Origin: Deltaproteobacteria bacterium
GTDB taxonomy: Bacteria > Myxococcota_A > Polyangia > JAAYKL01
Assembly: GCA_030595125.1 (NCBI GenBank)
Contig: JAUVDV010000001.1
Coordinates: 43,861 to 107,860, forward strand
DNA: 64,000 bases
Direction of reading: 5' to 3'
This document shows, piece after piece, positions 13,526 through 59,610 of this stretch (the first letter of the stretch is position 1; the number at the start of each line of letters is the position of its first letter). Below the pieces are notes generated by a model, which worked only from the letters and a program-made list of their open reading frames with translations, searched no databases and was not told the DNA's origin. The position numbers were made by a program, and so were the translations under genes.

Positions 13526-13533
13526 TTGGGGGT

Positions 13534-16113: not shown

Positions 16114-16135
16114 CAGGGGGGGGGAACCTGATCGG

Positions 16136-21159: not shown

Positions 21160-22056
21160 TCAGAAATTGACGGTTTGATCGGCCATATCCATGAGGGTCT
21201 GCGCGTCGATCGAAGATATGCTCGCCGGCCAGTAGGTGACCGCGGTGAAATCTTCACCGGTGAGTAATGTAAAGAATACGCACGCGGCCAGATACGAGCC
21301 GTAGATGGAGGGATGGCTACCGTCGCTGTCATGGAGATCGATGGCCGGATATGCGGCGATAGTTGCCTCCCAGGCGTCTCCCACCGGCGCGAAGATTCCG
21401 CCCGTGTCGTTCGCGGCATTCGTGTACGCGGTCCTCAGGCCTGCCTGCATCGATGTCGGATCATAACCCGCCAGATCGGTGGAATAGAGTGTATTGCCGG
21501 CCTCCCTGGCCCATGTTTCGAAGAACACGGGCTGGGCTCCCGCTGTGGTGGCAGCGGCACCGAGGGCAATGGCCGCGTTGTAAAATGTGGTGTAGTCCAC
21601 GAGAGCCAGATAACTTTGTTCTTGAAGCACGACGTAATCCCATTCGCCGTTTGCGATGGTGTCCATGGTCGACGCCGTGTTCAAGTGATGTTGTAGCCAC
21701 ATCCCACCACCGGTGATCGTCTGAACCTCGACTTGCGGCGAGTATCCCGCAGAATCCGCAATGTCCTTGAAGAGTGTATGGAGCGAGTTCGCAGCAGTGT
21801 AGCTGTTGCCGATAAAGAGCACACGGTTGCTCGTGTCGCCGCCGTCCGGCCCGCCGTCGTCATCTGTGTCAGTATCCGAGTCGGTATCCGAATCGGTGTC
21901 CGAGTCAGTATCCGAATCGGTATCGCCGTCCGAATCCGAGTCGGTGTCAGTGTCGGTGGACGCGTCCAATCCGCCGTCGGAATCTCCATTCGAGCCGTTA
22001 GAACAAGCGGACGCTAAAAGCAGAGCAGTAACAACAATTAAAAGTGAATTGTTCAT
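21160..22056 (-). CDS. SGNH/GDSL hydrolase lipoprotein with DS/DT linker
   Basis: Lipobox ASAC; RVLFIGNSYT, WDYVVLQEQS, DGSHPS; linker at ~21860-21957. Confidence 0.8.
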   Translation of the reverse strand: MNNSLLIVVTALLLASACSNGSNGDSDGGLDASTDTDTDSDSDGDTDSDTDSDTDSDTDSDTDTDDDGGPDGGDTSNRVLFIGNSYTAANSLHTLFKDIADSAGYSPQVEVQTITGGGMWLQHHLNTASTMDTIANGEWDYVVLQEQSYLALVDYTTFYNAAIALGAAATTAGAQPVFFETWAREAGNTLYSTDLAGYDPTSMQAGLRTAYTNAANDTGGIFAPVGDAWEATIAAYPAIDLHDSDGSHPSIYGSYLAACVFFTLLTGEDFTAVTYWPASISSIDAQTLMDMADQTVNF

Positions 22057-32158: not shown

Positions 32159-33381
32159 GGGGTGAGAGTGTCCGGGTCCGGCGGGGTGAACGAGCTGTCG
32201 TTGGTTATATAGACATAGCCGATAATGGGATAGTTACTGCCGTCGTAGGTGTCGCCGAAGAGAGAGAAAGTGTGAGTTCCCGGCCCCAGATCCCAGGTCC
32301 ATGGGGAGCTCGGGGCGTCAACCACCAGGGTCCAGGAGTAGCCCGTGGTCGTTGGAATGGGGGTGCTGTCGTCGATGTCCCAGATATCCGGGTTGTCCCA
32401 GTCGATGAGGTCCATGGTCAGGCCGAAAGAGTGACCCGTGTTCGAGGTGTTCGTGAGACCCCACACGTACCATGTGTCCAGGCACGGCAGGTCGAAGGAA
32501 TGGATAGCGTATCCCTGGTAGGCCGAGTGGGTGTGGAGCCAGTCCATCCCGACGTAGGAGCTCGAGTCGTGGTTGAACATGGGATCCTGGACGATGTCCG
32601 CGTCGTCCCAGTGGAAGTACAGATCATGATTGGAGGTGCATGACGAAACCGTCGATCCGTCGTAGCAGATGCCCGACTGCGGGTTGGAGATGGTCATATC
32701 CAGAGTGAATGGTCCCTGGCCGCTCGCGGAGGTGTAGAACGAGTCGACGATCACGTAATGCCAGCCGTTCGCCGTGGCCTCCCACGAGAAGTGTTCCTCC
32801 CCGGGGCCCGAGTCATTGTCCACGCACGCGGCCACGGTTTTGCTTTCGCAGGTTAGTCCCGAGGAGACGCCGTCGTAAACGAGGGCCAGGGACAAATCCG
32901 CAGCGGCGGCGTTCATCGAGGCGTTTAAAATCTCCCCGGCGTGCAGGTACACCCGGTACACAACGTCGTTGCCGTTCTGGGGGAATGTGCTGCAGGTGAG
33001 GGTAACGTCTGCGGCGAATGAGGTGTTGTTTCCGTTGATGGTTGTCGCCATTTCATCCCGGCCGATTTTCATGGCGTTGGCGCAGATTTCCGCAGCCTCG
33101 GTGCCGGAGCTGCATATGTCTTCGCCGGTATCCGTATCGGTATCCGAGTCGGTGTCCGAGTCGGTGTCCGAGTCGGTATCCGAGTCGGTGTCCGAATCGG
33201 TGTCCGAGTCGGTGTCCGAGTCGGTGTCCGAATCAGTGTCCGAATCGGCGTCCGAATCGGTGTCCGAATCCGAGTCTGAATCCGAGTCCCCACTTGCGTC
33301 CGGGTCCTGGAAAGGGGTCGGCGCGTAGTTGGTGCATCCCAGGCAAATTATCCATACCGATAAAAGGAAAATGCGTTTCAT
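32155..33381 (-). CDS. Lipoprotein with DS/DT linker and PPC-like/carbohydrate-binding passenger domains
   Basis: Lipobox CLGC; GGAGG RBS; GNDVVYRV...HYVIVDSF PPC-like motif. Confidence 0.7.
   Translation of the reverse strand: MKRIFLLSVWIICLGCTNYAPTPFQDPDASGDSDSDSDSDTDSDADSDTDSDTDSDTDSDTDSDTDSDTDSDTDSDTDSDTDTDTGEDICSSGTEAAEICANAMKIGRDEMATTINGNNTSFAADVTLTCSTFPQNGNDVVYRVYLHAGEILNASMNAAAADLSLALVYDGVSSGLTCESKTVAACVDNDSGPGEEHFSWEATANGWHYVIVDSFYTSASGQGPFTLDMTISNPQSGICYDGSTVSSCTSNHDLYFHWDDADIVQDPMFNHDSSSYVGMDWLHTHSAYQGYAIHSFDLPCLDTWYVWGLTNTSNTGHSFGLTMDLIDWDNPDIWDIDDSTPIPTTTGYSWTLVVDAPSSPWTWDLGPGTHTFSLFGDTYDGSNYPIIGYVYITNDSSFTPPDPDTLTP
33127..33288 (-). repeat. Tandem (Asp-Thr-Asp-Ser)n-encoding repeat
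   Basis: 12-bp units such as GACACCGACTCG on the minus strand. Confidence 0.95.
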
Positions 33382-40909: not shown

Positions 40910-42832
40910 ATGGGCAAGACAATAGGAATCGATCTTGGAACGACAAACAGTGTTGTTGCGGTCATCGAGGGCAAGGATCCGGTGATCATCTCCAATGAGG
41001 AGGGCGGGCGCACCACACCGTCGGTTGTGGCCTGGGACGACCAGGGCGAGATCCTCGTCGGCCAGATCGCCAAGCGACAGGCGATCACCAACCCCGAAAA
41101 CACGGTTTATTCCATCAAGCGTTTCATGGGTCGCAAGCAAGCCGAGGTCGGCGAAGAGATGTCCATGGTCCCCTACGACGTGACAAAGACGGCCAACGGG
41201 GATGCACACGTAAAAATCAAGGATCGGGACTATGCCCCGCCCGAGATCGCCGCCCGTATTCTCATGAAGCTCAAGAAAGCGGCTGAGGAGTACCTGGGCG
41301 AGCCGGTGACCGATGCGGTGCTCACCGTACCGGCCTACTTCAACGACTCCCAGCGTCAGGCCACCAAGGACGCGGGCAAGATCGCCGGCCTGGAGATCAA
41401 GCGCATAGTGAACGAGCCCACCGCGGCAGCGCTCGCCTACGGCCTCGACAAGAAGGCCGATGAAATCATCATTGTGTACGATTTCGGCGGCGGCACCTTC
41501 GATGTTTCCGTCCTGGAGGTCGGGGACAACGTGGTGCAGGTCATCTCCACCAACGGAGACACCCACCTGGGCGGCGACAATATCGATCAGATAATCATCG
41601 AGTACCTGGTGGCGGAGTTTAAAAAGGATCAGGGCATTGATGTGTCCGGGGACAAGATGGTATTGCAGCGGCTCAAGGAAGCCGCTGAGAAGGCAAAGAT
41701 CGACCTGAGCTCCCTGATGGAGACGCAGATCAATCTCCCCTTCCTCACCGCCGACGCCTCCGGGCCCAAACACCTCAACCTGCGTCTTTCCAGAGCCAAA
41801 TTCGAGTCGATGATCGGCGACGTTGTGGAGCGAACCCTCGCGCCGTGCCGCAGGGCCCTCGAGGACGGCAACAAACGGCCCGGAGATATAGATCAAGTGG
41901 TGCTCGTGGGCGGCTCAACGCGCATCCCGCTGGTGCAGCAGGCGGTGACCAAGTTCTTCGGCAAGGATCCCCACAAGGGTGTCAACCCGGACGAGGTGGT
42001 CGCCCTTGGTGCGGCAATCCAGGCCGGCGTGCTCTCCGGAGACGTCAAAGATCTGCTTTTGCTGGATGTGACGCCCCTGTCCCTAGGCGTGGAGACTCTC
42101 GGCGGGGTAATGACAACCATGATCACGCGCAACACCACCATCCCCGCAAAGAAGTCGGAGGTCTACTCTACCGCGGCGGACAGCCAGACCTCCGTGGAGA
42201 TTCACGTCCTCCAGGGGGAGCGGAGCATGGCCAAGGACAACAGGACCCTCGGGCGCTTTCACCTGGAGGGCATCATGCCGGCTCCACGGGGAGTCCCAAA
42301 GGTCGAGGTTACCTTCGATATCGACGCCAATGGGATTGTCAACGTTTCGGCCAAGGATATGGCCACGGGCAAGGAGCAGAAGATCACAATCACGGCCTCC
42401 TCGGGCCTGAAAGACGGGGAGATCGATAACATGGTCCAGGACGCCGAGAAGTACAAGGCGGAGGACGAGCAGCGCAAGAAGGATATCGAAACCAGGAACA
42501 AGGCCGAGCAGCTCGCCTACGCCACCGAGAAGACCCTCGAGGAGCACAGGGACAAGCTCCCGCAAGAGGAAGTGGCGAAGGTCGAGGGGGCCATCAAATC
42601 CCTGCGGGAGGTCATCGATTCCAACGACGCGTCGCGGATAGAGTCGGAAATGGAGAACCTCACCAAGGCGTCTCACAAGCTCGCGGAGCTGATGTATCAG
42701 GCGGCGGGAGCGAGCGTCGCCCCCGGAGCGGATCCCACGGACGGCGCCCCGGATCCGGGAGCTCCCGATCAGGCTGAAGAAGAGGGTGACAGCGACGTCA
42801 TCGACGCCGAGTTCGAGGAGAACAAACAGTAG
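40910..42832 (+). CDS. dnaK: Chaperone DnaK (Hsp70)
   Basis: [38 protein letters not shown]-terminal DVIDAEFEE. Confidence 0.98.
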
Positions 42833-42852
42833 CCCGCAGCATCCCCTGCCCG
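42782..42852 (+). repeat. 71-bp direct repeat, left copy (last 16 codons, stop and trailer of dnaK)
   Basis: 69/71 identical to 45049-45119. Confidence 0.95.
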
Positions 42853-42899
42853 TACTTCAAAAGAACCCCCCAATAATTCCGGTGAGTCGTTCTGATAAA

Positions 42900-42916
42900 A
42901 AAAGTGACTGGCACCG
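42900..42916 (+). repeat. AAAAGTGACTGGCACCG motif, copy 3 of 4
   Basis: Exact 17-mer also at 13506, 16094 and 45024. Confidence 0.9.
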
Positions 42917-42930
42917 AAAATGAAGAGAAA

Positions 42931-43941
42931 ATGGGGGAAATGGTAGATCCTAACGTTGAAAGAATGTTCGACGCGTTTTCAGTGCTGATCCTGGTTTCCG
43001 TGCTGTGTACCTTCGGATGTGCCAGTAAGGGCGCCGACGATGACTCCGACAGTGGGACTTCAGACAGTGATTCGGATACGGGCGATGTGCCTCCAAAGCG
43101 TATAGTCGCAATCGGCGACAATCACGCCGATCTTTCCCAGGCGCTCAAGGCTTTGCAAATAGGTGGAGTTATCGACCAGTCTCTCAACTGGATAGGTGGA
43201 GACACTATCGTGGTTCAGACAGGCGATATTCTAGATCGCGGCGTTGAGGAGTGGGAAGTCATCGATTTCTACGAGAACCTGAGACCCGAGGCCGAGGCGG
43301 CCGGCGGGCAAGTTGTCAATATGAACGGAAACCACGAGATCATGACCGCCTACGAGGATTATCGCTACTTTCAGGAAGAGGCGTGCGCAGCGTTCTCCGA
43401 TCTTACCGGCCTCGATACCAGCAACCCGGCGTTCGACGAGTTCACTGATGAAAATTGCAAATTGCGTGCGGCTGCATTCTGGCCCGGAGGCCCATACGCA
43501 CAGATAATAGCCAACTGGCTCATGGTTGCGGTGGTTCAGGACACGGTCTTCGTTCACGGCGGGGTTCACCAGAAGCACCTCGACTATGGAATCGATGAGA
43601 TCAACGCCATGACCAGGGCCTGGCTGATGGGGGAGGGAAATCTGGATTACAACCAAGTCGGCGGGGGTCCGGATGTGTTCTCGGTGGACTGGGACCGCAC
43701 CTACAGCGATGACGAAATTCCTCCGACAGCGGACCAATGCGACGATCTTGCCAGTGTTCTTGAGCAATTAGGAGTTGTGCGCATGGTCGTCGGTCACACG
43801 GTTCAGAGTCATATCAACACTGTCTGCGACGATATGGCGTGGCGCATCGATACGGGCATGGCCGTGTACTACGGTGGCGTGGTCGAGGTCATTGAAATTC
43901 TGGACGGAAACGTCAACGTATTGGTCGATTTGGCAGAATAG
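42931..43941 (+). CDS. Metallophosphoesterase lipoprotein (Shewanella-like phosphatase type); start uncertain
   Basis: AIGDNHAD, QTGDILDRG, GNHE, FVHGG, VVGHTVQ, RIDTGM; lipobox TFGC with short DS linker. Confidence 0.85.
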   Translation: MGEMVDPNVERMFDAFSVLILVSVLCTFGCASKGADDDSDSGTSDSDSDTGDVPPKRIVAIGDNHADLSQALKALQIGGVIDQSLNWIGGDTIVVQTGDILDRGVEEWEVIDFYENLRPEAEAAGGQVVNMNGNHEIMTAYEDYRYFQEEACAAFSDLTGLDTSNPAFDEFTDENCKLRAAAFWPGGPYAQIIANWLMVAVVQDTVFVHGGVHQKHLDYGIDEINAMTRAWLMGEGNLDYNQVGGGPDVFSVDWDRTYSDDEIPPTADQCDDLASVLEQLGVVRMVVGHTVQSHINTVCDDMAWRIDTGMAVYYGGVVEVIEILDGNVNVLVDLAE

Positions 43942-44018
43942 TTTTTACGCAATTGTGAATTGGCCTGATTGCTCCGAGATCTCCACGGTGCGAAGAAGTT
44001 TGTTATTGAGTGACTTAC

Positions 44019-44032
44019 GACCGCCGGCGGTC
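44019..44032. repeat. Perfect 14-bp palindrome GACCGCCGGCGGTC at transposase stop
   Basis: Read directly; subterminal hairpins are typical of HUH elements. Confidence 0.6.
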
Positions 44033-44966
44033 AGGCCGCGAGCTTGAATTTCGTGACAAGCGGCGGCCGGAACGTGCCCGGCGGGAACTCCACATCAAAA
44101 CATCCAGATCGAAAAGCCGCTGACGCTATGCGATGGGCCTTCACGATCTCCTTGTATTCCGCCTCGTACGCCTTGTAATCCTCTACTGTGTCAGCGTGAC
44201 AAAGAGGTTGGGGTGTCCGCTCCCGGGGAAGGATCGGCTTTGAGAATGGGCTCTCCTTTTCGATTCGCGCCATTCCTTTGATGTTCGTTATCCCCTCTGC
44301 CCTACGCTCTTTACGCGCCAGTTCTTCGTGATTGCGCACGATGTCGCGAAACCGCGCATGACGCGCGTCCTGGGAGAGATCCGTCCAACCGGGCAGCGGG
44401 TGAAGAACAACCTCTGTGTTCTTTGTGTATTTCGACGGGTCGATATCGTGGCGGTCAGCGCCGTTTTTCCACCAGAGGGTCCGGTCCACGTACTTGAACA
44501 CGAGTCGGCCTCCGCGAGAGAGCACCTCGGTCGTTGAGAAACCCTTCCACTGGTTCGCCTTTTCCACGAGGCCGTCCTTGACCACGTTGCACGCTCCGTA
44601 ACCGAGCAGTTTCTCCGCCTTGTTGTCGCTTGTTATCTCCTCGACCCGTACACGGCCTGCCCAGAAGTGCCCCTCTCGTCCGTAGAACCGGTTGAGATCT
44701 CTGGCCGCGCGCCCGGCGAACTCGCGTAAAAACGGGCTGACGTTGTCGGCCTGTCCCTCTCCGATGGAGAAGATGAGTTCCAGGTGGTTGATGTTGGTGG
44801 TTGCGCTATGCAGCAGGATCGGGTGCAGCTTCAGGGCCCTTCCCAGGCTCGAACCTATGATGTTGTTGACCTTTTTCGACGGCTTCAGGAGAAACATTCT
44901 GTCTGCGCAATTGAGTGTTGCGTGATACATTCCATTTTCTTTCCAGATTCTGATTCTTCGCGCCAT
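44031..44966 (-). CDS. HUH/Y1 (IS200/RAYT-like) transposase
   Basis: MARRIR..., YHATLNC, NH-L-E at the HUH position, REGHFWAGR, Y-x3-N-VVKDGLV, C-terminal FPPGTF. Confidence 0.8.
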   Translation of the reverse strand: MARRIRIWKENGMYHATLNCADRMFLLKPSKKVNNIIGSSLGRALKLHPILLHSATTNINHLELIFSIGEGQADNVSPFLREFAGRAARDLNRFYGREGHFWAGRVRVEEITSDNKAEKLLGYGACNVVKDGLVEKANQWKGFSTTEVLSRGGRLVFKYVDRTLWWKNGADRHDIDPSKYTKNTEVVLHPLPGWTDLSQDARHARFRDIVRNHEELARKERRAEGITNIKGMARIEKESPFSKPILPRERTPQPLCHADTVEDYKAYEAEYKEIVKAHRIASAAFRSGCFDVEFPPGTFRPPLVTKFKLAA

Positions 44967-45023
44967 ACTCCCTTAATCGGTCGCTCGACGGAAAAGTTGC
45001 CGAAATTCGTCCGCCGAGTGAAA

Positions 45024-45040
45024 AAAAGTGACTGGCACCG
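45024..45040 (+). repeat. AAAAGTGACTGGCACCG motif, copy 4 of 4
   Basis: Upstream of transposase start, 8 bp before the second dnaK-end copy. Confidence 0.9.
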
Positions 45041-45048
45041 AAAAAGGG

Positions 45049-45119
45049 GAGGGTGACAGCGACGTCATCGACGCCGAGTTCGAGGAGAATAAACAGTAGC
45101 CCGCAACATCCCCTGCCCG
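45049..45119 (+). repeat. 71-bp direct repeat, right copy (orphan dnaK 3' end)
   Basis: Encodes [16 protein letters not shown]; two substitutions relative to left copy. Confidence 0.95.
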
Positions 45120-45126
45120 CGTGAGC

Positions 45127-45564
45127 CTACCAGGTAATGGGTCCTCCACCGTGGCAACTCATTCCGGTGCAGGTCTGAGTTGAGGTGTCGTAGCTTCCGC
45201 TCCCTCCTGGAGCGATGTCCGGATTCTCATCCGTATGGGCCGTCTGGTCGGTTATCGAACCGGAACTGTCTACCATCGTATGACAGGTACTACAGCCCAT
45301 GGAGTGATCGCTATGGGAACCCGTATTGGGTGGATTTCCGTGACATGAATCACAGCCCAGATCGGTATCAGTGTCCGTATCAGTGTCCGTATCCGAATCG
45401 GTATCGCTGTCCGAATCGCTGTCTGAATCCGAGTCACCGTCCGAATCGGAGTCGCTGTCCGAATCGGTATCGCTGATGATGTCATCATCATCTCCACAAC
45501 CGGGTACAAAAACCAATCCAGGTGCCAGTAGTGTGGCCACAAATATGATCATCCATTTTCCCAT
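45127..45564 (-). CDS. Small c-type cytochrome lipoprotein with DS/DT linker (CxxCH x2, CxxxxCH x1)
   Basis: Lipobox VPGC; CDSCH, CSTCH, CTGMSCH; AAGGAGG RBS. Confidence 0.8.
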   Translation of the reverse strand: MGKWMIIFVATLLAPGLVFVPGCGDDDDIISDTDSDSDSDSDGDSDSDSDSDSDTDSDTDTDTDTDTDLGCDSCHGNPPNTGSHSDHSMGCSTCHTMVDSSGSITDQTAHTDENPDIAPGGSGSYDTSTQTCTGMSCHGGGPITW

Positions 45565-45654
45565 GAGAGCCTCCTTGAGACTATAAAAGAAGTAGACATT
45601 GCATTATTGCACAGTTTTTGGGGTTTGCAAGCCGAGCAAGCGCGATGGCGAGAT

Positions 45655-46428
45655 CTATATTTTCGAAAAGGAAGCTTCGATGATCTCTGCGAGTTGTTCC
45701 GTGGATTCCCACTGGGGCATGTGTCCAACCCCGGGAAGGACAACCAGGCGGGCTCCTCGGATCTCCCTGGCAAGTTCCTTGCCTTTGTCAATAGAGGCAA
45801 CCCGGTCTTCCGATCCGTGGACCACGGTGCAGGGACAGGAGATCTCGTGCAGTCTGGAACCAAAGTCGAAGCGTCCACACGCAGCACGTTGACCGGCAAT
45901 TCCTCGGCCCGTCGCCCGCCGTTCGATCCGTTCCGCGACAAGTGTCTCAAAATCATCTGCGCGATCCGAGCAGAAATACTCACCAACGCATACGGCGAGA
46001 GTCTCGCGAACGATTTCCTCAACCGGGCCTCTCGTGCGCCCCATGGCTGCAATCGCGTCCGGAGTTGATCCCAGGGCGTCGGATCGCCCGCCGCGCGCGG
46101 TACTCAGGAGGAGGAGCCCACTAACGGCTTCGGGGAAATCCGCAGCGATTTGCAACGCGATCAGCCCGCCCATGGAGTGTCCCACAACCCCAAATCGATC
46201 CATGTGGAGGGCTCTCGCCAGTCCAATGGTATCCGCAGCCATTTTCTCGATAGTGTACGGACCGTCGGGGGCGTCGCTCTTGCCGGAACCCCGGTTGTCC
46301 ACCAACACGCATGTAAACCGATCCCGAAGGAGCGTCGCGAGCGGGTTCCAGACGGTCAGGTCCAATCCCAGTCCGGCCAGGAAAATCAAAGGTGGTCCGT
46401 TACCGCTCACCTCGTGGTTGATCGTCAA
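45655..46428 (-). CDS. Alpha/beta hydrolase
   Basis: DNRGSGKSD, GHSMGG nucleophile elbow, HGSEDR, GVGH. Confidence 0.9.
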   Translation of the reverse strand: MTINHEVSGNGPPLIFLAGLGLDLTVWNPLATLLRDRFTCVLVDNRGSGKSDAPDGPYTIEKMAADTIGLARALHMDRFGVVGHSMGGLIALQIAADFPEAVSGLLLLSTARGGRSDALGSTPDAIAAMGRTRGPVEEIVRETLAVCVGEYFCSDRADDFETLVAERIERRATGRGIAGQRAACGRFDFGSRLHEISCPCTVVHGSEDRVASIDKGKELAREIRGARLVVLPGVGHMPQWESTEQLAEIIEASFSKI

Positions 46429-52738: not shown

Positions 52739-53176
52739 TCAGTTCTTGACGGTGATCTGCCTGGGCAAGGCATGTGCGGCCCTGGGCAAGACGATTTCCA
52801 GGACACCGTTCTCGAACCGGGCGTCAATCTTGTCCGGGTCGATGGGCTGTCCCAGATCGATGGTGCGGTTGAAGCTTCCGTGATCTCGCTCTGCACGATG
52901 ATAGCTTCTGTCGGCGATATCGTTGTTGGGACTTCGTTCACCTTTCAGGGTCAGCTGCGTCGCCGTGGCGGTGATGTCCAGATCGTCCAGAGAGATCCCC
53001 GGGATCTCGGCTAGGACGATGTACGATTCGCCGTTGTCGTAGGTGTTGATCGGCGGAAAGACACCGCAGGCGTTTTTTGAATAGTCCCGCTCGCCGAACA
53101 GGTCGCCCATGTGTTGTTGCCACCGGTTCATCTCCTGCCAGATGTCGTTGAAACGATGTGTTCTCAAAACTGTCAT
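52739..53176 (-). CDS. Small heat-shock protein Hsp20
   Basis: FPPINTY...AEIPGI...ERDHGSFNRTI...NGVLEIVLP; GGAGG RBS before 53176. Confidence 0.92.
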   Translation of the reverse strand: MTVLRTHRFNDIWQEMNRWQQHMGDLFGERDYSKNACGVFPPINTYDNGESYIVLAEIPGISLDDLDITATATQLTLKGERSPNNDIADRSYHRAERDHGSFNRTIDLGQPIDPDKIDARFENGVLEIVLPRAAHALPRQITVKN

Positions 53177-53230
53177 TGCTCGCCTCCAAATCTTTGCCGG
53201 GGTTTTCGTCCCCGGGTTTTCTCTTCGCAA

Positions 53231-53246
53231 TGCAATGTGGGCACCG
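53231..53246 (-). promoter_or_regulatory. Possible sigma54 promoter of hsp20 pair
   Basis: Minus strand CGGTGCCCACATTGCA has GG-N10-GC spacing and TTGCA -12. Confidence 0.4.
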
Positions 53247-53365
53247 TTTTTGTGCGGTAAAGCCCGGGTTGTGTTTTTTTTGGGAGGGAAAAAACCGATC
53301 ATGGAAAGGACGTTTTATAGTGTCGTCGATCACAAGCGGGGTAAAATGGTGTTCAGGAGGACGCC

Positions 53366-53833
53366 GTGAAGAGAATCTCAATATTGACGATATGCATTGG
53401 CGTGTTGGCTGTGACATTCACCTGGAGTGGCTGTGACGACGAGGGCGGCACGGACGAGTTTTCGGAAGCACGCCAGAGGTGCGTGCAGAAGATCAATGAT
53501 TTTCGCGCCACCGAGGGGATACCTGCCCTGGCCCGCTGGTACAGCGGAGAACCCTGCGCCGACGACGAGGCAAAGCAGGACGCCCAGGCGGGGCAGTCTC
53601 ACAGCGCTTTTGGACAGTGCGGCGAGGCGGCCCAGAACGAGTGCCCGAGCTGGCCCTCGGTGGACGACATCATCGACGGATGCCTCCAGAGCATGTGGGA
53701 CGAGGGACCGGGCGCTGACTACAGCGTTCACGGACACTATATCAACATGAGCAGCACCAGTTACGAAAAGGTAGCCTGCGGGTTCTACAGGACGTCCGCC
53801 GGTGACATCTGGTCTGTGCAGAATTTCAAATAG
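53366..53833 (+). CDS. CAP/SCP-domain lipoprotein
   Basis: Lipobox WSGC; INDFRA, AQNE, GHYINM...VACGF...VQNF. Confidence 0.8.
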   Translation: MKRISILTICIGVLAVTFTWSGCDDEGGTDEFSEARQRCVQKINDFRATEGIPALARWYSGEPCADDEAKQDAQAGQSHSAFGQCGEAAQNECPSWPSVDDIIDGCLQSMWDEGPGADYSVHGHYINMSSTSYEKVACGFYRTSAGDIWSVQNFK

Positions 53834-53850
53834 TCCCCAAAAAGACAGGT

Positions 53851-54774
53851 GTGAGATTGCGACACGATAAACCGTCCCGCAGAAAGTTTTTCGGCGATTG
53901 CGCCGTCGCGGTGGCCGCCGTCGGGGTGGGCGCGGCAGTGGGTTGTGCGGGGGAGACCGACCGGGCAAAAGCGGAGGCTCCGGGGACCCATCACGAGCCG
54001 GGTGAATGGTGGACCGAGGGCCGTTACGTGGTTCACCGAACGGTCGATGCATCCAGGCTCAATGATGGTCTGTTGAGAGCCAGAATCGACGGCTCCTGGC
54101 GTGACGTATCGGTGGTGAACCTTCCGGACAGGTTTGTGCGATGGAGTTTCGAGGAGAGGATAGCCCGCCTTGCAAAGCTGGCCGCCGTGGGGTTCGATAC
54201 CAGAGATCTGGACGGGCCCCACAACGCGTGCGTGGCCACATACGGAGGCTGGAGTCGCGACTCGGCGTTCTCCCTCAACACAGCCTACAAGGGGATGGGG
54301 TTCACGCCTACCGAGGAGAGGCTTCCGGGCACTCTCGACGAACTTGGGGAAGAGTCGGAGCGGATCCGCAGGGCGTCCAGGGGCGATTTCATGGCCGACA
54401 TGCGTGAGAAGATCAAGTTTCTGGCCGGTCTCTACAACGACGCGAGCCGCTTCGATATGACCAGGCAGGTCTCCCTCGAGCTCTTTACGGAGCCGGGATA
54501 TGCCACGCACACTTTTCTGAACATGATGGCCAACCCCATCGTCTCCGCGTCGTTCCTGGCCTATCCGACCTTTGAGATACGGGCGGTTCCGCAGCTCCTG
54601 CACCCGGAAAACCCCGCGCTCACGCCTCACGAGCGGAACGTTGTTCGCTACACGAACGCGATTCACGATTTCGTTCACGGTGGTACGGGGGATCGGATGA
54701 CCTGCATCTACCACATTTGCGAGGTGTTCGACGACACGCCTAACAAGGGTGGAGCGGGCACGCGGCTTGTCTGA
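53851..54774 (+). CDS. Tat-signal (lipo)protein, probable FMN-binding split-barrel family
   Basis: SRRKFF twin-arginine, AVGC lipobox; HNACVAT...LNTAYKGMG...SLELF...HTFLN...FDDTP pattern. Confidence 0.55.
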   Translation: MRLRHDKPSRRKFFGDCAVAVAAVGVGAAVGCAGETDRAKAEAPGTHHEPGEWWTEGRYVVHRTVDASRLNDGLLRARIDGSWRDVSVVNLPDRFVRWSFEERIARLAKLAAVGFDTRDLDGPHNACVATYGGWSRDSAFSLNTAYKGMGFTPTEERLPGTLDELGEESERIRRASRGDFMADMREKIKFLAGLYNDASRFDMTRQVSLELFTEPGYATHTFLNMMANPIVSASFLAYPTFEIRAVPQLLHPENPALTPHERNVVRYTNAIHDFVHGGTGDRMTCIYHICEVFDDTPNKGGAGTRLV

Positions 54775-54804
54775 CGTCATGTGACAAGTGATGGGTATTG
54801 ACCC
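54719..54804 (+). repeat. 86-bp direct repeat, left copy (3' end and trailer of 53851 gene)
   Basis: 82/86 identical to 56417-56502. Confidence 0.95.
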
Positions 54805-54836
54805 CTTTCCTTTCCGGATAGAAGCGGGTTACTAAT

Positions 54837-56357
54837 TCAGGGATCTCTGCGTCCATTCAGTTTCATCATTGCCAAATGAGCGGCCCTGAACCACCGGGGG
54901 GTTCTTAAGTGGGCTTCGCGGATGGAGGGTGTTGTCAGAAACGACTTATCGATGAAGTTTCGAGCTTCTTCCCGGGGAGAGATACCGCCGCATGTAAAAG
55001 GGCGATACAAATGAATGACGTCTTCGTTGCCGGGATAGTCTCCCATCATTATCTCAAATTCTTCGGCCCGTTGTGCAAGTTCGCAGTACTTGGGAAGGTT
55101 GAACAACGACAGGTTCATGAAATCCACATCGGAGGAGTTGCTTTCAATGAGATCGAGAGTCGCTTGCCGGTGCTCAGACGTTTCGCCCGGTAAGCCGAAC
55201 AAAAGATACAGATAAGTACGGATACCCGCGGCTGCAGCTTGTCGAATTGTTTCTGCCGATTCTTTTGCGCGTAGCCCTTTATCGAAACGGTCGAGCAAAT
55301 TGTCGCTTCCACCCTCTACACCCAATTGCAGCATCAACAATCCGGCCTCAGCGGCATCTTCGAGCAGCCCGTCTCGCGTGAGTTCTTCAGAGGGCCGAGC
55401 GAATCCGTAGAACTTTACTCCGTACTCACGGGCCGCAGGAAGAAATTGTCGTAGTCTTTTGGGGGGAATTGCCGAGTCCAGCAAATGAACGATGGGTCTG
55501 CGTTCAATAATGTCATTGGGTATGGAACTCAGGAATTGTGTGTACGATGATTCGGGCACTTTGACGAAGGGCATCTCCCTGTCCGGGCAAAAAAGGCAGC
55601 GGCGCCAGTAACAACCAGTGGACAGGGTGAATGGAACAACGGGGTGGGCACTCAGGTAGGGCAGACTGCTTACAAGCGTAGGCCAGGAGATTCTATCCCA
55701 AAAACCCAGTTCGTTTTGATTGGGGATCAGTGATGCCCCGTTGGACAAATCGATTGTTCCAAGTACTTTATGAAGCGCATCGAGTCCATGCCCGGTCGTA
55801 GCGAGGCTGCGAGGGAGTGATCCTCCAATTATGGGTTCAATACCTCTCTGTTTGAGAAATGAAACCAAGTCGATTGTTGAAGCCAGCTGTGACAGATATG
55901 CCAATGAGATAAGAACATGTTTGGGCTTTATCTCATTGAGCACTGGTTCCAGGCGTTCCTCCCATAGTTGTGAAAATGGGTTGGCACCGTTGGAAAGCCG
56001 GTCGGCTAGTGCAGACGGATCGTGTACGTGTTCCGGCGAAGTAATGTCCATGAAAGTGAGTTTCCAGCCGGAATTGATGTTCGAATACTGTTTGAGTTGC
56101 TTGTGCAATGAGCCGGCTGCGGTTCTGTGCCGCATCGGGTCGTATCCGGTTTTCATGTTCAGCAGATACTGCACCGAGTTTTCAACAGCCGCAGTTTTTA
56201 TTTCGGGATGATCGAGGGTTTGATGAAAGAACTCCAGCGAGAGATCAAAAAGGCCGGCGTCATAGCCGTTTCCGGTCAAACCCGCTGCCAGTATGAAAGC
56301 TCCGGAAGGGGGTTCTGCCGGAGTGCACACAGGTCCGGAGAGTACAAGATACTCCAT
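54837..56357 (-). CDS. Radical SAM protein with B12-binding-like N-terminus
   Basis: GCYWRRCLFC (CxxxCxxC), LQLGVEGGS, YLLFGLPGET; lower GC than flanks. Confidence 0.85.
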   Translation of the reverse strand: MEYLVLSGPVCTPAEPPSGAFILAAGLTGNGYDAGLFDLSLEFFHQTLDHPEIKTAAVENSVQYLLNMKTGYDPMRHRTAAGSLHKQLKQYSNINSGWKLTFMDITSPEHVHDPSALADRLSNGANPFSQLWEERLEPVLNEIKPKHVLISLAYLSQLASTIDLVSFLKQRGIEPIIGGSLPRSLATTGHGLDALHKVLGTIDLSNGASLIPNQNELGFWDRISWPTLVSSLPYLSAHPVVPFTLSTGCYWRRCLFCPDREMPFVKVPESSYTQFLSSIPNDIIERRPIVHLLDSAIPPKRLRQFLPAAREYGVKFYGFARPSEELTRDGLLEDAAEAGLLMLQLGVEGGSDNLLDRFDKGLRAKESAETIRQAAAAGIRTYLYLLFGLPGETSEHRQATLDLIESNSSDVDFMNLSLFNLPKYCELAQRAEEFEIMMGDYPGNEDVIHLYRPFTCGGISPREEARNFIDKSFLTTPSIREAHLRTPRWFRAAHLAMMKLNGRRDP

Positions 56358-56416
56358 TTGGGGAAACTACATTGCCTGCACAAGGTGCTCAACAATAATT
56401 CTCATCCTTAGAAAAA

Positions 56417-56502
56417 GCGAGGTGTTCGACGACACGCCTAACAAGGGTGGAGCTGGCACGCGGCTCGTCTGACGTTATGTGACAAGTGATGAGTATTGAC
56501 CC
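56417..56502 (+). repeat. 86-bp direct repeat, right copy
   Basis: Encodes EVFDDTPNKGGAGTRLV*; both coding-part substitutions are synonymous. Confidence 0.95.
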
Positions 56503-56514
56503 TGTGGTCCTGTA

Positions 56515-56982
56515 ATGCGGCCTATGTGCTTTCCGCAGACTGAGGAGGGTTTTTTGGAAACTTCGTCTTTGCCAAAAGACAGAGCCTTTGCGCACAACGG
56601 CGTATTGCTCGCGATGTTTTCCGCCTCATCAGTCATGATCTGGGTGGCGGCTGTGATGAATTTCATCCAGCACAAACAGTTCCTCCCCTACTTCTTGATC
56701 GCGGTTGCATTGCTCCAGACCATTATAGTCTTCTTCTACGCGAGTGCCCCTGTCGTGCGCATCGAATCGGGCATTTTAAAGTATCGACCAGCTCTTCTGC
56801 GCTACGCCCAGATCGGTGATCTGAGCAAGATTACCAGCTTGGACGTGCGAAAGAATAAGGTGATAGTCCAGTTTCAATCCGGTCAAACCATAAAGATCGA
56901 CTTCTTCGGATTGAGCAAATTCGATCGACCGGCCTTGATAGAACTACTATACCAATGGAAATATGGGACGTTGTTAACTTGA
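56515..56982 (+). CDS. Hypothetical membrane protein (two TM + PH-like tail); start uncertain
   Basis: Two hydrophobic helices followed by a beta-rich domain. Confidence 0.5.
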   Translation: MRPMCFPQTEEGFLETSSLPKDRAFAHNGVLLAMFSASSVMIWVAAVMNFIQHKQFLPYFLIAVALLQTIIVFFYASAPVVRIESGILKYRPALLRYAQIGDLSKITSLDVRKNKVIVQFQSGQTIKIDFFGLSKFDRPALIELLYQWKYGTLLT

Positions 56983-57113
56983 TGAACTTGATCGTTGGAA
57001 CGAAAAGCGCGTCGGCGGATGACATATCTTAATGCCTGTGCGTTTTCGCATGCGCACGAGCCAACACACTCATAGTGATCGCAGCAGCACAGTAACAGAA
57101 AGCTTCGAAGGGC

Positions 57114-57443
57114 TCACCAGGTCTCGCTCTGGTCGTATCCGCATACGGCGTAGGTGTCGTCGTTGTCGTCTCTTTTTTCAACGCATGTTTTGTCGATGTC
57201 GGCGCAGTCGTAGTCCTCTTCCGGATAGGAACCGTTCCCGTTCACCGTATCGATGAAGTCCAGGAGATCGCAGAAGAAACCACAGCTGTCATCGTAGTCG
57301 TCTTCCCAGTAATCATCGTCATCGCTGACACATAGAATGATCACATCACCATCGCACCAGGTCTCACCGACGTCGCATCCGCTGTCGCATCCGCCGGCCG
57401 TGAACATCCCCAATACAAGGAGTTTGACGGCCAGGAATTTCAT
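57114..57443 (-). CDS. Small acidic Cys-rich lipoprotein
   Basis: MKFLAVKLLVLGMFTAGGC lipobox; start overlaps the alr stop (ATGA). Confidence 0.65.
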   Translation of the reverse strand: MKFLAVKLLVLGMFTAGGCDSGCDVGETWCDGDVIILCVSDDDDYWEDDYDDSCGFFCDLLDFIDTVNGNGSYPEEDYDCADIDKTCVEKRDDNDDTYAVCGYDQSETW

Positions 57444-58585
57444 GGGACGAGGATCCTCGGTGAACCCGGCGCCGCCCGGGTGACGATTTCGTAGTTGATG
57501 GTGTCCGCGAGTCGGGCCAGATCTTCCGCGCTGACGGACTCGTCCCCCACAGATCCGAGGAGGACGACCTCGTCGCCCGCGCGGGCCTGCGCGACATCGG
57601 TGACATCCACCATGGTGAGGTTCATGCAAATACGCCCCACCACGGGAGCACGAGTCCCGCGCACCAGGGTGTGAGCGCCGCCGGACAGTTTTCGATCGTA
57701 GCCATCTGCGTACCCCACCGGGAGAACCGCTATGCGTGTGGGACGGGTCGCGCGGAATGTCCGCCCGTAGCCGACATACTCTCCCGTGGGAACGTCCTTG
57801 ATCTGTGCGATGCGGGTCTTCCAGGTCATGACGGGTCGAAGATCCAGGTCGTTGCGCTCCAGTGCGGCCGCCGAGACCTGGGTCTCCCTGGAGGGCCACA
57901 ACCCGAACAGGCCGATGCCAACCCGGACCATTTGAAAGTGCGTGTCCGAAAAAAGGATTGTCGCTGCGGTACAGGCAGTGTGTGGAATGGGTACGGTCAC
58001 GTCCATCTGTTCGAGGAGCGCTGTGAACCGGTCGATCTGGCCGGCGGCGAAGATGTGATCGGTGGTGTCTTCGATATCCGCGAAGTGGGTGTACGCGCCC
58101 TCGATAGTCACGCCGCCGCCCGCGAGGAGCGAGACGGCTTGCGGCAGCTGGGCGCCTACCAGTCCCTGTCGATTTGTTCCGGTCTCCAGTTTCAGATGCA
58201 CCGGGACCCGGGCGCATGAGGGATGGTCCAGAAGATCTTTCACCCCCCTTGTAGACATGATCGACAACCTCAAACCCGCCTCGACGGCGCAGTCGATCTG
58301 ATCTCGAGAGGTGGCTCCGAGGACCAGGATCGGAACGGTGATTCCCGCTTCGCGAAGGGCCAGTCCCTCGGCCGCCGTGAAGACCCCAAACCAATCGGCG
58401 CAGGATTCTTCGATGGTTTTGGCCACCGGAAGCATGCCGTGTCCGTAGGCGTTCGCCTTGACCACCGCCATGAACGCGAGGTCACGCCCGATGAGTCGGC
58501 GAAACAGGGTCGCGTTGTGAAGGAGGGCCGAACTGGACAACTCGATCCAGTTGTTTGCCTGTTCAATGTCGCGATGGTCGGTCAT
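57440..58585 (-). CDS. alr: Alanine racemase
   Basis: AVVKANAYGHG, VHLKLETG, YTHFA, VRVGIGLFG, GYADG, GRICM, TINYE. Confidence 0.95.
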   Translation of the reverse strand: MTDHRDIEQANNWIELSSSALLHNATLFRRLIGRDLAFMAVVKANAYGHGMLPVAKTIEESCADWFGVFTAAEGLALREAGITVPILVLGATSRDQIDCAVEAGLRLSIMSTRGVKDLLDHPSCARVPVHLKLETGTNRQGLVGAQLPQAVSLLAGGGVTIEGAYTHFADIEDTTDHIFAAGQIDRFTALLEQMDVTVPIPHTACTAATILFSDTHFQMVRVGIGLFGLWPSRETQVSAAALERNDLDLRPVMTWKTRIAQIKDVPTGEYVGYGRTFRATRPTRIAVLPVGYADGYDRKLSGGAHTLVRGTRAPVVGRICMNLTMVDVTDVAQARAGDEVVLLGSVGDESVSAEDLARLADTINYEIVTRAAPGSPRILVP

Positions 58586-58653: not shown

Positions 58654-59610
58654 TTATTCCGGATCCTTGCAGCACCGGAAGCCGGCAAAGAGGCTGGTCC
58701 AACCGGCGGTATAACCGCACTGCAGGCGCGAATCCGGGCCCGCGCAGTTGAACGCGCCTCCGCGGATTTCCCAGGATGTTGATGTCAGGGCGATTTCCCA
58801 TACGTTTCCACCGATGTCAAAGGTACCCAGGGTATTGGTGCACTGGGGAAAGTCACCCGTCGGGAGGATCTCGTAGCAGCCATAGGTATAGCCGCAGTTG
58901 TAGCTCAAGTCGCAGCTGCCCATGGGTATGCTGTGGCTCAAGCACCACTCATCGCACAGGGCGCCGACGCTGTTACAGAGGTTTTGATCGAAAGCATTGC
59001 CGAATACATACACGAAATCGCTCTCGCCGGAGCACGCCTCGAACCATTCCTCGGATTGGCAGAGCCGTTTGCCCGCCGCAGCACACGCCGCCTGGAAAGT
59101 ACCGACGTGGGTGGTGTTGATGGGATTGTTCCACCAGGGTTGTTTCCCCGGAACGGAGTGGGCGATGCTGGTGGCAATGCCCTGACTCGTGCTGGTGGCG
59201 TCGTCTCGTGACGCCTCGTATTTGTCGATGCAATACGATTGATAAACCCCCGGCACCGAAGCAGAAGAAACGAAGACCATATCCGACGGGCATCCTCCGT
59301 CCAGGAACGGATCCCCACCGTCCACGGATCCCGCGTCCACCTCGGCGCCGGTGCCGGTATCGGTGACGCTGCCCGTGTCCGTGCAGCCGCCCTCATCTTC
59401 GGTTTCGCTGTCCGTATCCGAATCGGAATCGGAATCCGCGTCCGTGTCGGAATCGGAATCCGTGTCCGTGTCGGAATCGGAATCCGTGTCGCCATCGGCC
59501 CCGGCGTCCATGTCCAGCGAGGCCCAGTAGTCGTAAGTGTCAGGAGAGCAGGCGATCGCAAGGATCACCACAAAAAAGCACAGAATAGGGCAAAGGTTTT
59601 GATGAAGCAT
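58654..59610 (-). CDS. FGE-sulfatase (SUMF1-like) domain lipoprotein with DS/DT linker
   Basis: Lipobox AIAC; CIDKYEAS, GKRLC...EW, DIGGNVWE, GFRCC. Confidence 0.8.
   Translation of the reverse strand: MLHQNLCPILCFFVVILAIACSPDTYDYWASLDMDAGADGDTDSDSDTDTDSDSDTDADSDSDSDTDSETEDEGGCTDTGSVTDTGTGAEVDAGSVDGGDPFLDGGCPSDMVFVSSASVPGVYQSYCIDKYEASRDDATSTSQGIATSIAHSVPGKQPWWNNPINTTHVGTFQAACAAAGKRLCQSEEWFEACSGESDFVYVFGNAFDQNLCNSVGALCDEWCLSHSIPMGSCDLSYNCGYTYGCYEILPTGDFPQCTNTLGTFDIGGNVWEIALTSTSWEIRGGAFNCAGPDSRLQCGYTAGWTSLFAGFRCCKDPE

What the first reader, a model, noticed from the sequence alone, without database searches (positions are those of the whole stretch)
54719..56502. Second gene-3'-end duplication (86 bp) enclosing a lone radical SAM gene
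Seen: the final 17 codons, stop and trailer of the Tat-protein gene recur 1.7 kb later (82/86), enclosing one lower-GC antisense gene and no recombinase. The left copy ends at a GGGT-ATTG-ACCC mini-palindrome, and the right copy is preceded by GAAAAA, as at dnaK. Geometry matches the dnaK case: minus-strand cargo with its 5' end by the downstream copy. Inference: a non-autonomous product of the same mechanism.
Basis: partly seen in the sequence, partly recalled or inferred. Interest (0 to 1): 0.75.

Follow-up and report, generated by a model that had tools for sequence, protein, structure and literature searches.

The report
Gene-end duplication flanking inserted radical SAM gene
The last 86 bases of a gene are truly repeated on the far side of an inserted radical SAM gene, one of about twenty such scars in this genome, and they look like a known kind of recombination-driven gene insertion, not a new mobile element.

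Summary
Bases 54719-54804 (last 17 codons, stop and 30-nt trailer of the Tat-signal gene) recur at 56417-56502 with 82 of 86 identical. They enclose one lower-GC, minus-strand class-B-like radical SAM gene and no recombinase.

The interpretation, a non-autonomous product of the dnaK-linked recombinase, is not supported. That gene is a REP-associated-transposase-like, IS-like unit. It sits elsewhere in two sister genomes and is single-copy here, and none of 16 comparable inserts holds a recombinase.

This cold-seep Myxococcota genome has 19 such gene-3'-end duplications among 45 low-copy local repeats. Sister species carry an empty site (G002) or different cargo behind a 182-nt copy (G001) at the same gene end. 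Conspecific strains carry the right-copy letters in the functional gene, next to the radical SAM gene. The two copies are therefore circulating alleles, not a fresh duplication that decayed.

Best reading (about 0.5): this is an 'insertion with long target duplication' at a variable hot spot. It was made by homologous recombination anchored in the conserved gene end, probably a single crossover with a circular anchor-plus-cargo DNA. Selection would explain the 3' bias. No excision was seen. This is a new member of a known kind, of moderate interest.

The parts
53851..54774 (+). Host (anchor) gene: 307-aa protein with a twin-arginine signal, function unknown
   Evidence: ORF. TIGR01409 17.8 bits against cut-off 16.7; PF10399 below cut-off. 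Orthologs 92-93% identical (aa) in G001 and G002, and 58-60% in four genomes of three other genera.
54719..54804 (+). Left copy: functional 3' end of the host gene (17 codons + stop) plus 30-nt trailer
   Evidence: Its 56 coding bases are identical to G002 and to the full gene of G001.
54837..56357 (-). Cargo: lone radical SAM gene (506 aa), class-B (B12-binding-type)-like, with an invariant C-x4-C-x2-C motif
   Evidence: Pfam PF04055. Weak NCBIfam hits to PhpK and RiPP C-methyltransferase families. Atlas neighbours are named B12-binding radical SAM. Orthologs 47-57% identical in 18 of 20 family genomes of other genera; none in G001 or G002. Motif from the alignment.
56394..56416 (.). 23-nt junction stretch between the cargo's upstream region and the right copy
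   Evidence: A strain in run X7 follows the window up to 56393 and then continues with other letters (loose end).
56417..56502 (+). Right copy: truncated 3' fragment of the host gene with no start or promoter of that gene, plus trailer
   Evidence: Its letters at 54756, 54768 and 54778 equivalents (T, C, T) are those found in the functional gene of strains in runs X5 and X7.
56515..56982 (+). ORF of 155 aa with no family: second, separate piece of the variable block
   Evidence: Absent from G002. No cover in X5 or X7. Not next to radical SAM orthologs elsewhere.
54775..57113 (.). Whole block absent from sister genome G002, whose gene stop is followed by 43 nt and then window 57114
57440..58585 (-). 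Conserved right flank: alanine racemase
   Evidence: Pfam. Aligned in G001 and G002.

Best explanation
The locus is a small gene islet inserted just behind a conserved gene at a variable hot spot. It belongs to the class described as 'insertion with long target duplication'. No dedicated recombinase is involved. Most likely, DNA carrying the last ~86 nt of the same gene from another strain, plus the radical SAM gene, recombined with the resident gene end through host homologous recombination. The probable form is a single (Campbell-type) crossover with a circular anchor-plus-cargo molecule. This leaves an intact gene, the cargo, and a truncated silent second copy of the gene end in front of the older downstream DNA (ORF 56515-56982). 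The duplication lies at a 3' end because only there can a 40-130-nt duplication plus an insert leave both neighbouring genes and their promoters intact. Shown: the repeat, the insertion relative to G002, different cargo at the same gene end in G001, about 19 similar loci, no recombinase in the inserts, and the two copies being different circulating alleles. Inferred: the crossover geometry, the circular intermediate, the role of RecA, and selection as the cause of the 3' bias.
For: (1) Hot spot. G002 has an empty site. G001 has the full gene plus the same trailer followed by a Y1-transposase element. On another contig G001 has a 182-nt partial copy, an LRR lipoprotein gene, a ~13-nt remnant of the gene end, and then the native downstream DNA. 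The copy lengths of 86, 182 and ~13 nt argue against one fixed att site.
(2) Alleles. The right-copy letters T, C, T are present in the functional gene, directly joined to the radical SAM gene, in contigs of runs X5 and X7. These come from other studies and are otherwise about 99% identical for X5. The left copy equals G002 and G001.
(3) Other loci. At C69 the sister genome carries the same cargo behind a gene end with the right-copy type of trailer. At C186 the left copy is nearest to G002 and the right copy nearest to G001. At C61 the right copy matches the orthologs at 3 sites where the left copy differs.
(4) The last 120 nt of the host gene show 0 (G002) and 1 (G001) differences, against about 3-6 per 60 nt elsewhere. 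Another relative has synonymous differences there. This points to recent exchange, not constraint.
(5) Genome-wide: 19 of 45 low-copy local direct repeats are 3'-type and 2 are 5'-type; both 5'-type pairs are long and 81-85% identical. In 17 of 19 the insert GC is lower than the host-gene side. Cargo is diverse and includes no recombinase.
(6) Precedent. Furuta et al. 2010 (PMC2853133, passages read) describe such insertions and note that the repeats often span a start or stop site. Kirchberger et al. 2017 (PMC5361080, passages read) describe anchor-mediated insertion that shifts old 3' ends downstream.
Against: No strictly clean empty site exists. G002 has only the first 56 of the 86 repeated bases, lacks the 30-nt trailer, and also lacks 56503-57113. 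At least two events are therefore needed, and the recipient haplotype (gene + trailer + ORF155) was not observed.
If the donor was X5-like, the crossover must lie in the last ~10 nt of the homology, at this locus and again at C69. That is unlikely for random crossovers. It is equally explained by a duplication of unknown origin followed by allelic replacement of the functional copy.
The X7 strain has the radical SAM gene behind the same host gene with different junctions on both sides, which the simple model does not predict.
No circle, empty-site joint or other excision joint was seen in four runs (contigs only).
No Ku gene was found, so end-joining circularisation lacks support.
The REP-like core is about 8-fold enriched in the 20 loci (4 hits against 0.53 expected, in 3 loci).
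The gene calls behind the 19-of-45 count come from a crude home-made caller.
Confidence: 0.5

Rival explanations
1. True long target-site duplication. An unknown break-and-fill process cut the target with a 40-130-nt stagger, the cargo was ligated in, and the two copies started identical and then diverged.
For: The geometry fits. At C80 and in the left part of C186 the two copies are each other's closest relatives. The literature leaves the mechanism of this class open in the passages I read.
Against: Three of the four differences between the copies are alleles found in the functional gene of other strains. At C61 and C186 the truncated copy is the ortholog-like one. G002 lacks the trailer that should be part of the target.
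Confidence: 0.15
2. Decayed or trans-mobilised site-specific integrative element. An integrase-bearing element whose attP mimicked the gene's 3' end integrated, and later lost its integrase, or uses one encoded elsewhere.
For: Integration into gene 3' ends with imperfect direct repeats is typical of tyrosine-integrase elements (established knowledge). The genome has a tRNA-Arg 3'-half repeat around a 6-kb island. It has 6 Phage_integrase-domain hits.
Against: No recombinase was found in this unit or in 16 comparable inserts. None of the 6 hits lies in such an insert. About 19 different target genes are involved. Copy lengths at the same gene end differ (86, 182, ~13 nt). Inserts are only 0.4-2.3 kb.
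Confidence: 0.12
3. RAYT/REP-linked cassette system. A Y1 HUH transposase acting on REP-like hairpins inserts cargo behind genes and duplicates their ends, and this unit is a non-autonomous member.
For: RAYT-like genes sit at two such hot spots: dnaK in this genome, and the Tat-gene end in G001. The REP-like core is enriched in the loci, with 4 hits against 0.53 expected. The right copy contains the 7-mer CTGGCAC, created by its T allele.
Against: 17 of 20 loci have no REP core, and this locus has none. The RAYT unit is single-copy here and occurs at other loci in sister genomes without gene-end copies. Y1 transposases are not known to make duplications (recalled knowledge). REP sequences live in intergenic DNA anyway, which can explain the enrichment.
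Confidence: 0.08
4. Assembly artefact. Two co-existing strain haplotypes (gene-radical SAM and gene-ORF155), or a chromosome plus a 1.7-kb circle, were stitched through the shared 37 nt.
For: Mixed strains are present in the samples (X3 holds a G001-like variant). Logan unitigs break exactly in the shared 37 nt.
Against: The junction of cargo upstream with the start of the truncated copy is real sequence in an independent sample (X2 contig 55454-56446). So a truncated copy beside the cargo exists in any case. Depths of the pieces are similar, 5.7-10.1. The assembly's contig of 124 kb runs through the locus.
Confidence: 0.05
5. Remnant of a tandem duplication of the upstream gene, or a template repeat of a diversity-generating retroelement.
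For: Both would give a second copy of a gene's 3' end nearby.
Against: The DNA between the copies is a foreign-looking radical SAM gene, not a copy of host DNA. No reverse transcriptase is present. The four mismatches are G/T, T/C, C/T and G/A, not adenine-specific, and two of them lie beyond the stop.
Confidence: 0.02

Closest known systems
Insertion with long target duplication (Nobusato et al. 2000, recalled from the reference list only; Furuta et al. 2010, PMC2853133, passages read)
   Same: Direct repeats of more than 30 bp, unique in the genome, flank a short insert without mobility genes. The repeats often span a stop site so that the target gene stays intact. The insert GC is deviant. 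An empty site exists in a relative.
   Different: It was described for restriction-modification genes, whereas the cargo here is a radical SAM gene, and other loci carry many unrelated genes. The script counts 19 such loci in one genome. The empty site in G002 holds only 56 of the 86 repeated bases. The two copies carry different circulating alleles.
Anchor-mediated displacement of 3' ends: orphan arrays at T6SS effector-immunity, Rhs and CDI loci, explained by homology-facilitated illegitimate recombination (Kirchberger et al. 2017, PMC5361080, passages read)
   Same: A conserved gene segment serves as homologous anchor. New DNA enters behind it and shifts the old 3' fragment and its downstream genes further away. 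Repeated events build arrays, as with the G001 182-nt and ~13-nt copies here and the three copies at C198.
   Different: There the variable part is the toxin end of the same gene plus its immunity gene. Here the anchor gene is unchanged and the cargo is unrelated. The allele pattern at this locus (cargo-linked alleles in the truncated copy) fits a circular single crossover better than one-ended illegitimate joining.
Integrase-borne genomic islands in the 3' ends of tRNA or protein genes
   Same: The 3' end of the target gene is duplicated as imperfect direct repeats. The gene stays intact. Tandem accretion occurs at one site.
   Different: There is no integrase, the inserts are tiny (0.4-2.3 kb), many different target genes are used, and the copy length varies at the same site.
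REP / RAYT (REPIN) systems
   Same: The genome has a REP-like motif in 82 copies, and a RAYT-like gene flanked by inverted copies of it (contig C57). RAYT-like genes sit in two of the hot spots.
   Different: This unit has no REP core and no RAYT gene. REP/RAYT systems are not known to carry cargo or to duplicate gene ends (recalled).

Membership tests
Insertion with long target duplication | Direct repeats longer than 30 bp flanking the insert, unique in the genome | tested here: met
   86 nt, 82 of 86 identical. Only these two places in the 5.39-Mb assembly.
Insertion with long target duplication | No integrase, transposase or other mobility gene inside the insert | tested here: met
   The single ORF is a radical SAM protein by Pfam and NCBIfam.
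[quoted passage not shown]
   G002 joins the gene end to window 57114. It holds only 56 of the 86 bases and also lacks 56503-57113.
Site-specific integrative element (attL/attR) | Integrase or other site-specific recombinase in the element | tested here: not met
   None in 54775-57113. None of the 6 PF00589 hits of the genome is on this contig.
Site-specific integrative element (attL/attR) | Same core and copy length in independent occupancies of the site | tested here: not met
   Copies of 86 nt (this genome), and 182 nt and ~13 nt (G001), at the same gene end.
REP/RAYT-linked element | REP-like motif at the unit's ends, or a RAYT gene in it | tested here: not met
   No GTGNCTGGCAC core in 54669-56552; only one 7-mer CTGGCAC, inside the right copy.
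Diversity-generating retroelement (template and variable repeat) | Reverse transcriptase nearby and adenine-specific mismatches | tested here: not met
   No such ORF. Mismatches are G/T, T/C, C/T and G/A, two of them beyond the stop.
Radical SAM superfamily (the cargo) | Radical_SAM domain above the Pfam threshold, with a three-cysteine cluster motif | tested here: met
   PF04055, 41 bits against cut-off 29.5. C249-x4-C254-x2-C257 is invariant in 11 of 11 orthologs. The spacing is x4, not the canonical x3.
Class B (B12-binding) radical SAM enzymes (the cargo) | N-terminal B12-binding domain (PF02310) | tested here: inconclusive
   Pfam gives no PF02310 hit at E <= 0.01. NCBIfam hits to B12-type families are all far below cut-off. 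Atlas neighbours are named B12-binding, but PF02310 is listed (13% of members) for only the first of the three shown.

The most novel reading that the evidence does not exclude
The ~19 gene-3'-end duplications are the work of one dedicated, undescribed cassette-insertion system of this Myxococcota lineage. It would be a trans-acting enzyme, possibly the RAYT-like Y1 transposases with their REP-like motif, or something not yet recognised. It would place promoter-bearing single-gene cassettes just behind stop codons and copy 40-130 nt of the target. The radical SAM unit would be one of its non-autonomous cassettes.
Probability: 0.1. Interest if true: 0.8.

Novelty: new member of a known kind. 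Interest (0 to 1): 0.4.

Why it matters
It shows how an uncultured cold-seep myxobacterium gains and shuffles single accessory genes without phage, plasmid or transposase genes. Conserved gene ends serve as landing pads, and the leftover truncated copies record the events. About twenty such scars in one 5.4-Mb genome offer more cases of 'insertion with long target duplication' than the handful per species listed in the paper I read. The mechanism of that class is left open in the passages I read. The allele pattern seen here, with cargo-linked alleles in the silent copy, gives a testable prediction for that mechanism. For annotation, such truncated copies should be read as scars, not as genes or att sites.

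Tried and rejected
Metagenome scan for the gene end (degenerate pattern): one short contig that ends at the stop. It was useful only for showing synonymous variation.

The search for related loci with the radical SAM protein alone found nothing. With an alignment it found 311 relatives and kept 80, the best 56% identical. They lie in Myxococcota/Polyangia/Bradymonadales MAGs, then Fermentibacteria/Aegiribacteria at 42-47%. No near-identical donor was found. I built no tree, because no species tree was at hand to compare it with.

Neighbours of the radical SAM orthologs differ from genus to genus, and ORF155 is not among them. There is no conserved operon to explain the cargo's function.

Excision: four runs laid as contigs gave no joint across the unit. 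This is no evidence against excision.

Contigs C159, C171 and C172 have 141-nt terminal overlaps. C159 and C172 proved to be members of repeated lipoprotein families, not excised cassettes; C171 was not compared.

The tRNA-Arg island, meant as a positive control for integrase islands, has no integrase itself.

Empty-site searches for C55, C61, C80 and C178 hit contig ends, or different DNA, right after the conserved gene in the sister genomes. These are hot spots, but not clean empty sites. My coordinates for the C61 divergence profile were off at both ends, and I dropped that row.

Ku was not found. ComEC is present, but also in 10 of 14 control genomes, so it is uninformative.

Paper searches for islets flanked by partial duplications and for Campbell-type integration gave nothing closer than the two papers cited. 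Supplements of Furuta et al. 2010 were not opened.
Full report
**1. What is there**

The window is contig C173:43861-107860 of a 5.39-Mb, 203-contig assembly, 95% complete. It comes from cold-seep metagenomes. Relatives named in public records are Myxococcota (Polyangia, Bradymonadales) MAGs.

The 86-nt direct repeat is real. The copies are 54719-54804 and 56417-56502, with 82 of 86 bases identical and a spacing of 1698. They occur nowhere else in the genome.

The left copy is the true end of a 307-aa gene with a twin-arginine signal (53851-54774). It holds 17 codons, the stop and 30 nt of trailer. The right copy has no start and no upstream part of that gene.

Between them lies one gene, 54837-56357 on the minus strand. 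It encodes a 506-aa radical SAM protein (PF04055). Its motif C-x4-C-x2-C is invariant in 11 orthologs. It has weak, far sub-threshold likeness to B12-dependent methyltransferase families and B12-type neighbours in the protein atlas.

GC falls from about 0.60 to about 0.50 at the stop codon and stays low until about 57300. The trailers do not fold better than shuffles, and no terminator-like site was found there.

**2. Is it an insertion?**

Two genomes of the same genus carry the host gene at 92-93% protein identity.

In G002 the stop codon is followed by 43 nt and then by the sequence of window 57114 onward. G002 therefore lacks the whole block 54775-57113: trailer, radical SAM gene, right copy and ORF 56515-56982.

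In G001 the full gene is followed by the same trailer and then by a Y1-transposase (IS200-like) gene flanked by inverted repeats. A second G001 contig starts with a 182-nt partial copy of the gene end. That copy is followed by an LRR lipoprotein gene, a ~13-nt remnant of the gene end, the native downstream DNA as in G002, and the alanine racemase flank.

So the end of this gene is a hot spot. It is empty in one species and filled with different cargo, separated by gene-end copies of different length, in two others.

The radical SAM gene has full-length orthologs at 47-57% identity in 18 of 20 genomes of other genera of the family, but none in G001 or G002. In the other genera it is never beside the host gene's ortholog; the two lie on different contigs in the four genomes that have both. 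Its neighbours differ from genus to genus.

**3. Assembly and strains**

The Logan contigs are k=31 unitigs made independently of the MAG.

- Run X2 (another sample of the same study): contigs tile 52800-58400 with no difference. They break only inside the 37 nt that the two copies share before their first difference. One contig (54726-55388) joins the left-type letters to the radical SAM 3' end. One (55454-56446) joins the radical SAM upstream region to the start of the truncated copy. One (56424-58400) joins the right-type letters to ORF155 and the racemase.
- These unitigs alone cannot exclude an 'empty chromosome plus 1.7-kb circle'. Depths are even, from 5.7 to 10.1. The MAG contig runs through the locus; three contigs with 141-nt terminal overlaps suggest k=141, which is my inference.
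- No joint across the unit was seen in any of the four runs.
- Runs X5 and X7 (other studies): contigs bridge the host gene into the radical SAM gene (54493-55015 and 54638-55389). In them the copy next to the cargo carries T, C and T at 54756, 54768 and 54778, which are the letters of this genome's right copy.
- X5 is otherwise about 99% identical. Neither run has cover over 56540-57100.
- X7 has a different trailer (54779-54812) and leaves the window's sequence after 56393.
- X3 also holds a G001-like variant; its loose end before 54597 matches the letters that precede G001's 182-nt partial copy.

**4. The dnaK case and the recombinase**

The 76-nt dnaK repeat (42777-42852 and 45044-45119) is real.

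- The 311-aa minus-strand ORF is REP-associated-tyrosine-transposase-like (NF047646, 36.6 bits against a cut-off of 80).
- It lies in a 1,059-nt unit (43986-45044) that occurs at other loci in G001 and G002 at 88-90% identity.
- That unit is single-copy here, with two paralogs at 36-37% identity elsewhere.
- The phosphoesterase gene between the dnaK copies is beside dnaK in G001 and G002 too. What differs is a lipoprotein gene and the order of the pieces.
- The 'GAAAAA' before the dnaK copy belongs to a 24-nt motif present on both sides of that block. Its core GTGNCTGGCAC occurs 82 times in the genome against 2.6 expected.
- The same core flanks a RAYT paralog as inverted repeats on contig C57. 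It is therefore a REP-like sequence.
- The third repeat of the window (13479 and 16067) is a pair of such REP-like elements.
- The Tat-gene unit has no such core.

**5. A genome-wide pattern**

A self-comparison of the assembly combined with a crude codon-usage gene caller (4,240 genes, 87% coding) gave 45 low-copy local direct repeats. The criteria were 30-300 nt, at least 80% identity, and spacing of 0.3-10 kb. The script classed them as follows:

- 19 are 3'-type: the outer copy holds the end of an intact gene and the truncated copy lies beyond an insert.
- 2 are 5'-type. Both are long and only 81-85% identical, which looks like paralog N-termini.
- 1 is mixed.
- 5 lie inside genes on both sides.
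- 18 are 'other'. These include three pairs at one locus (C198, three copies) that are 3'-type by eye.

Some of the 19 are marginal: C52, C67, C71 and C114 at 46505.

Copies are 38-198 nt and inserts 369-2,259 nt. In 17 of 19 the insert GC is below that of the host-gene side.

Pfam on 54 ORFs from 16 loci found no recombinase. The cargo is diverse: methyltransferases, AAA_14/DUF4143, ORF6N, ABC-F, AAA_21, FGE-sulfatase, flotillin, FG-GAP, DEAD helicase, DHO_dh-like, LRR and DUF6883.

The strict REP core occurs 4 times in 3 of 20 loci, against 0.53 expected. It is enriched but absent from 17 loci.

Where sister genomes could be read, results differ by locus. At five loci (C61, C80, C178, C186, dnaK) they carry different DNA right after the conserved gene's stop. 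At C69 G002 shares the cargo. At C55 the search hit only a contig end.

**6. What the alleles say**

If the duplication arose in place and the silent copy then decayed, the right copy's differences should be private to it. They are not.

- This locus: 3 of 4 differences are the letters of the functional gene in X5 and X7, linked to the cargo. The left copy equals G002 and G001.
- C69: G002 carries the cargo behind a gene end whose trailer is of the right-copy type.
- C186: the left copy, which has a 3-nt insertion and a premature stop, is nearest to G002. The right copy is nearest to G001.
- C61: the right copy matches the orthologs at three sites where the left copy differs.
- The last 120 nt of the host gene have 0 differences to G002 and 1 to G001, against about 3-6 per 60 nt elsewhere. 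A metagenome relative shows synonymous changes there.

All this points to exchange of gene-end alleles between lineages by homologous recombination at these anchors.

**7. Mechanism**

A circular DNA made of the gene end plus cargo from a strain like X5 could recombine once with the resident gene end. The product would be exactly what is seen: an intact gene with resident letters, the cargo, a truncated copy with donor letters, and then the resident's old downstream DNA.

One-ended homologous plus illegitimate recombination is the model proposed for displaced 3' ends at T6SS and Rhs loci (PMC5361080). It predicts the opposite allele pattern at this locus, though it fits C186 and C61 equally well.

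There are weak points.

- The crossover would have to lie in the last ~10 nt, both here and at C69.
- The assumed recipient haplotype was not seen.
- X7 has other junctions.
- No Ku gene was found.

An alternative that I cannot exclude is a duplication of unknown origin followed by allelic replacement of the functional copy.

The 3' bias needs no targeting. A 40-130-nt duplication with an insert leaves both neighbours and their promoters intact only at gene 3' ends. Furuta et al. make the same point.

**8. Comparison and verdict**

The closest described class is 'insertion with long target duplication' (PMC2853133, passages read). It has three features:

- repeats of more than 30 bp that are unique in the genome: met here;
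- no mobility genes in the insert: met here;
- an empty site in a relative: only partly met here, because G002 has 56 of the 86 bases.

It is not a member of the integrase-island, REP/RAYT or DGR families, because defining features were tested and not met.

It is a new member of a known kind. Its value lies in the number of cases in one genome and in the allele evidence. A dedicated cassette system remains possible at about 0.1.

Noticed in passing
window 42895-42920, 45020-45045, 13479-13532, 16067-16120; genome-wide: REP-like motif family. The core GTGNCTGGCAC occurs 82 times (2.6 expected), always behind an A-run and often in tandem arrays of 2-3. There are two subtypes...AATGTGTCTGGCACCCTTG... 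and a ~55-70-nt element ending ...GAATAAAAGTGACTGGCACCGTTT.... One RAYT paralog (contig C57:8727-9644) is flanked by inverted copies.
   Followed up: partly
window 43986-45044: RAYT-like (Y1 transposase-like) unit of 1,059 nt. It is single-copy here but lies at other loci in both sister genomes. Its HUH region reads H-L-E, so it may be inactive.
   Followed up: partly
window 40910-45672 (dnaK locus): Relative to G001 and G002, the pieces behind dnaK are reordered rather than simply inserted. The phosphoesterase gene is shared. A plus-strand DS-repeat lipoprotein gene of G002 is missing. A RAYT unit, a dnaK-end copy and a minus-strand DS-repeat lipoprotein gene are added.
   Followed up: partly
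window 54655-54774: The last 120 nt of the Tat-signal gene are nearly identical in three species (0 and 1 differences), while the rest of the gene differs by 6-8%. This is a sign of recent exchange at the anchor.
   Followed up: partly
window 54837-56357: The radical SAM family has an invariant C-x4-C-x2-C cluster motif instead of C-x3-C-x2-C. It occurs as a lone gene with changing neighbours in Myxococcota, Fermentibacteria and Aegiribacteria. Its function is unknown.
   Followed up: partly
L039 (G000:C80:58383-60102): Nested scar. The truncated copy is itself preceded by a second ~30-nt copy of the trailer, which suggests two successive events at one gene end.
   Followed up: no
L048 (G000:C198:55071-59079): Three copies of one gene's 3' end (62-88 nt, 86-93% identical) separate two inserts, one with an FG-GAP protein and one with a flotillin-like protein. 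Together they form a small array.
   Followed up: partly
L041 (G000:C186:47919-48006): The functional copy of a sulfatase-family gene ends 8 codons early, through a 3-nt insertion that makes a stop. The truncated copy keeps the ortholog-like end.
   Followed up: no
L061 (G000:C114:34473-40478): A 46-nt repeat of the 3' half of tRNA-Arg(ACG) brackets a 6-kb island holding a T5orf172/DUF4041 protein, an IS4-type DDE transposase and a Fic protein, but no integrase.
   Followed up: partly
G000 contigs C159, C171, C172: These contigs have identical 141-nt ends. C159 and C172 hold members of repeated lipoprotein families, so they are probably assembly cycles rather than plasmids.
   Followed up: partly
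window 18275-18472, 20880-22000, 26373-26582, 33100-33340, 45337-45499, 59333-59530: Many secreted or lipoprotein genes carry long Asp-Ser/Asp-Thr repeat linkers (12-nt and 18-nt periodic DNA repeats). These dominate the repeat tables.
   Followed up: no
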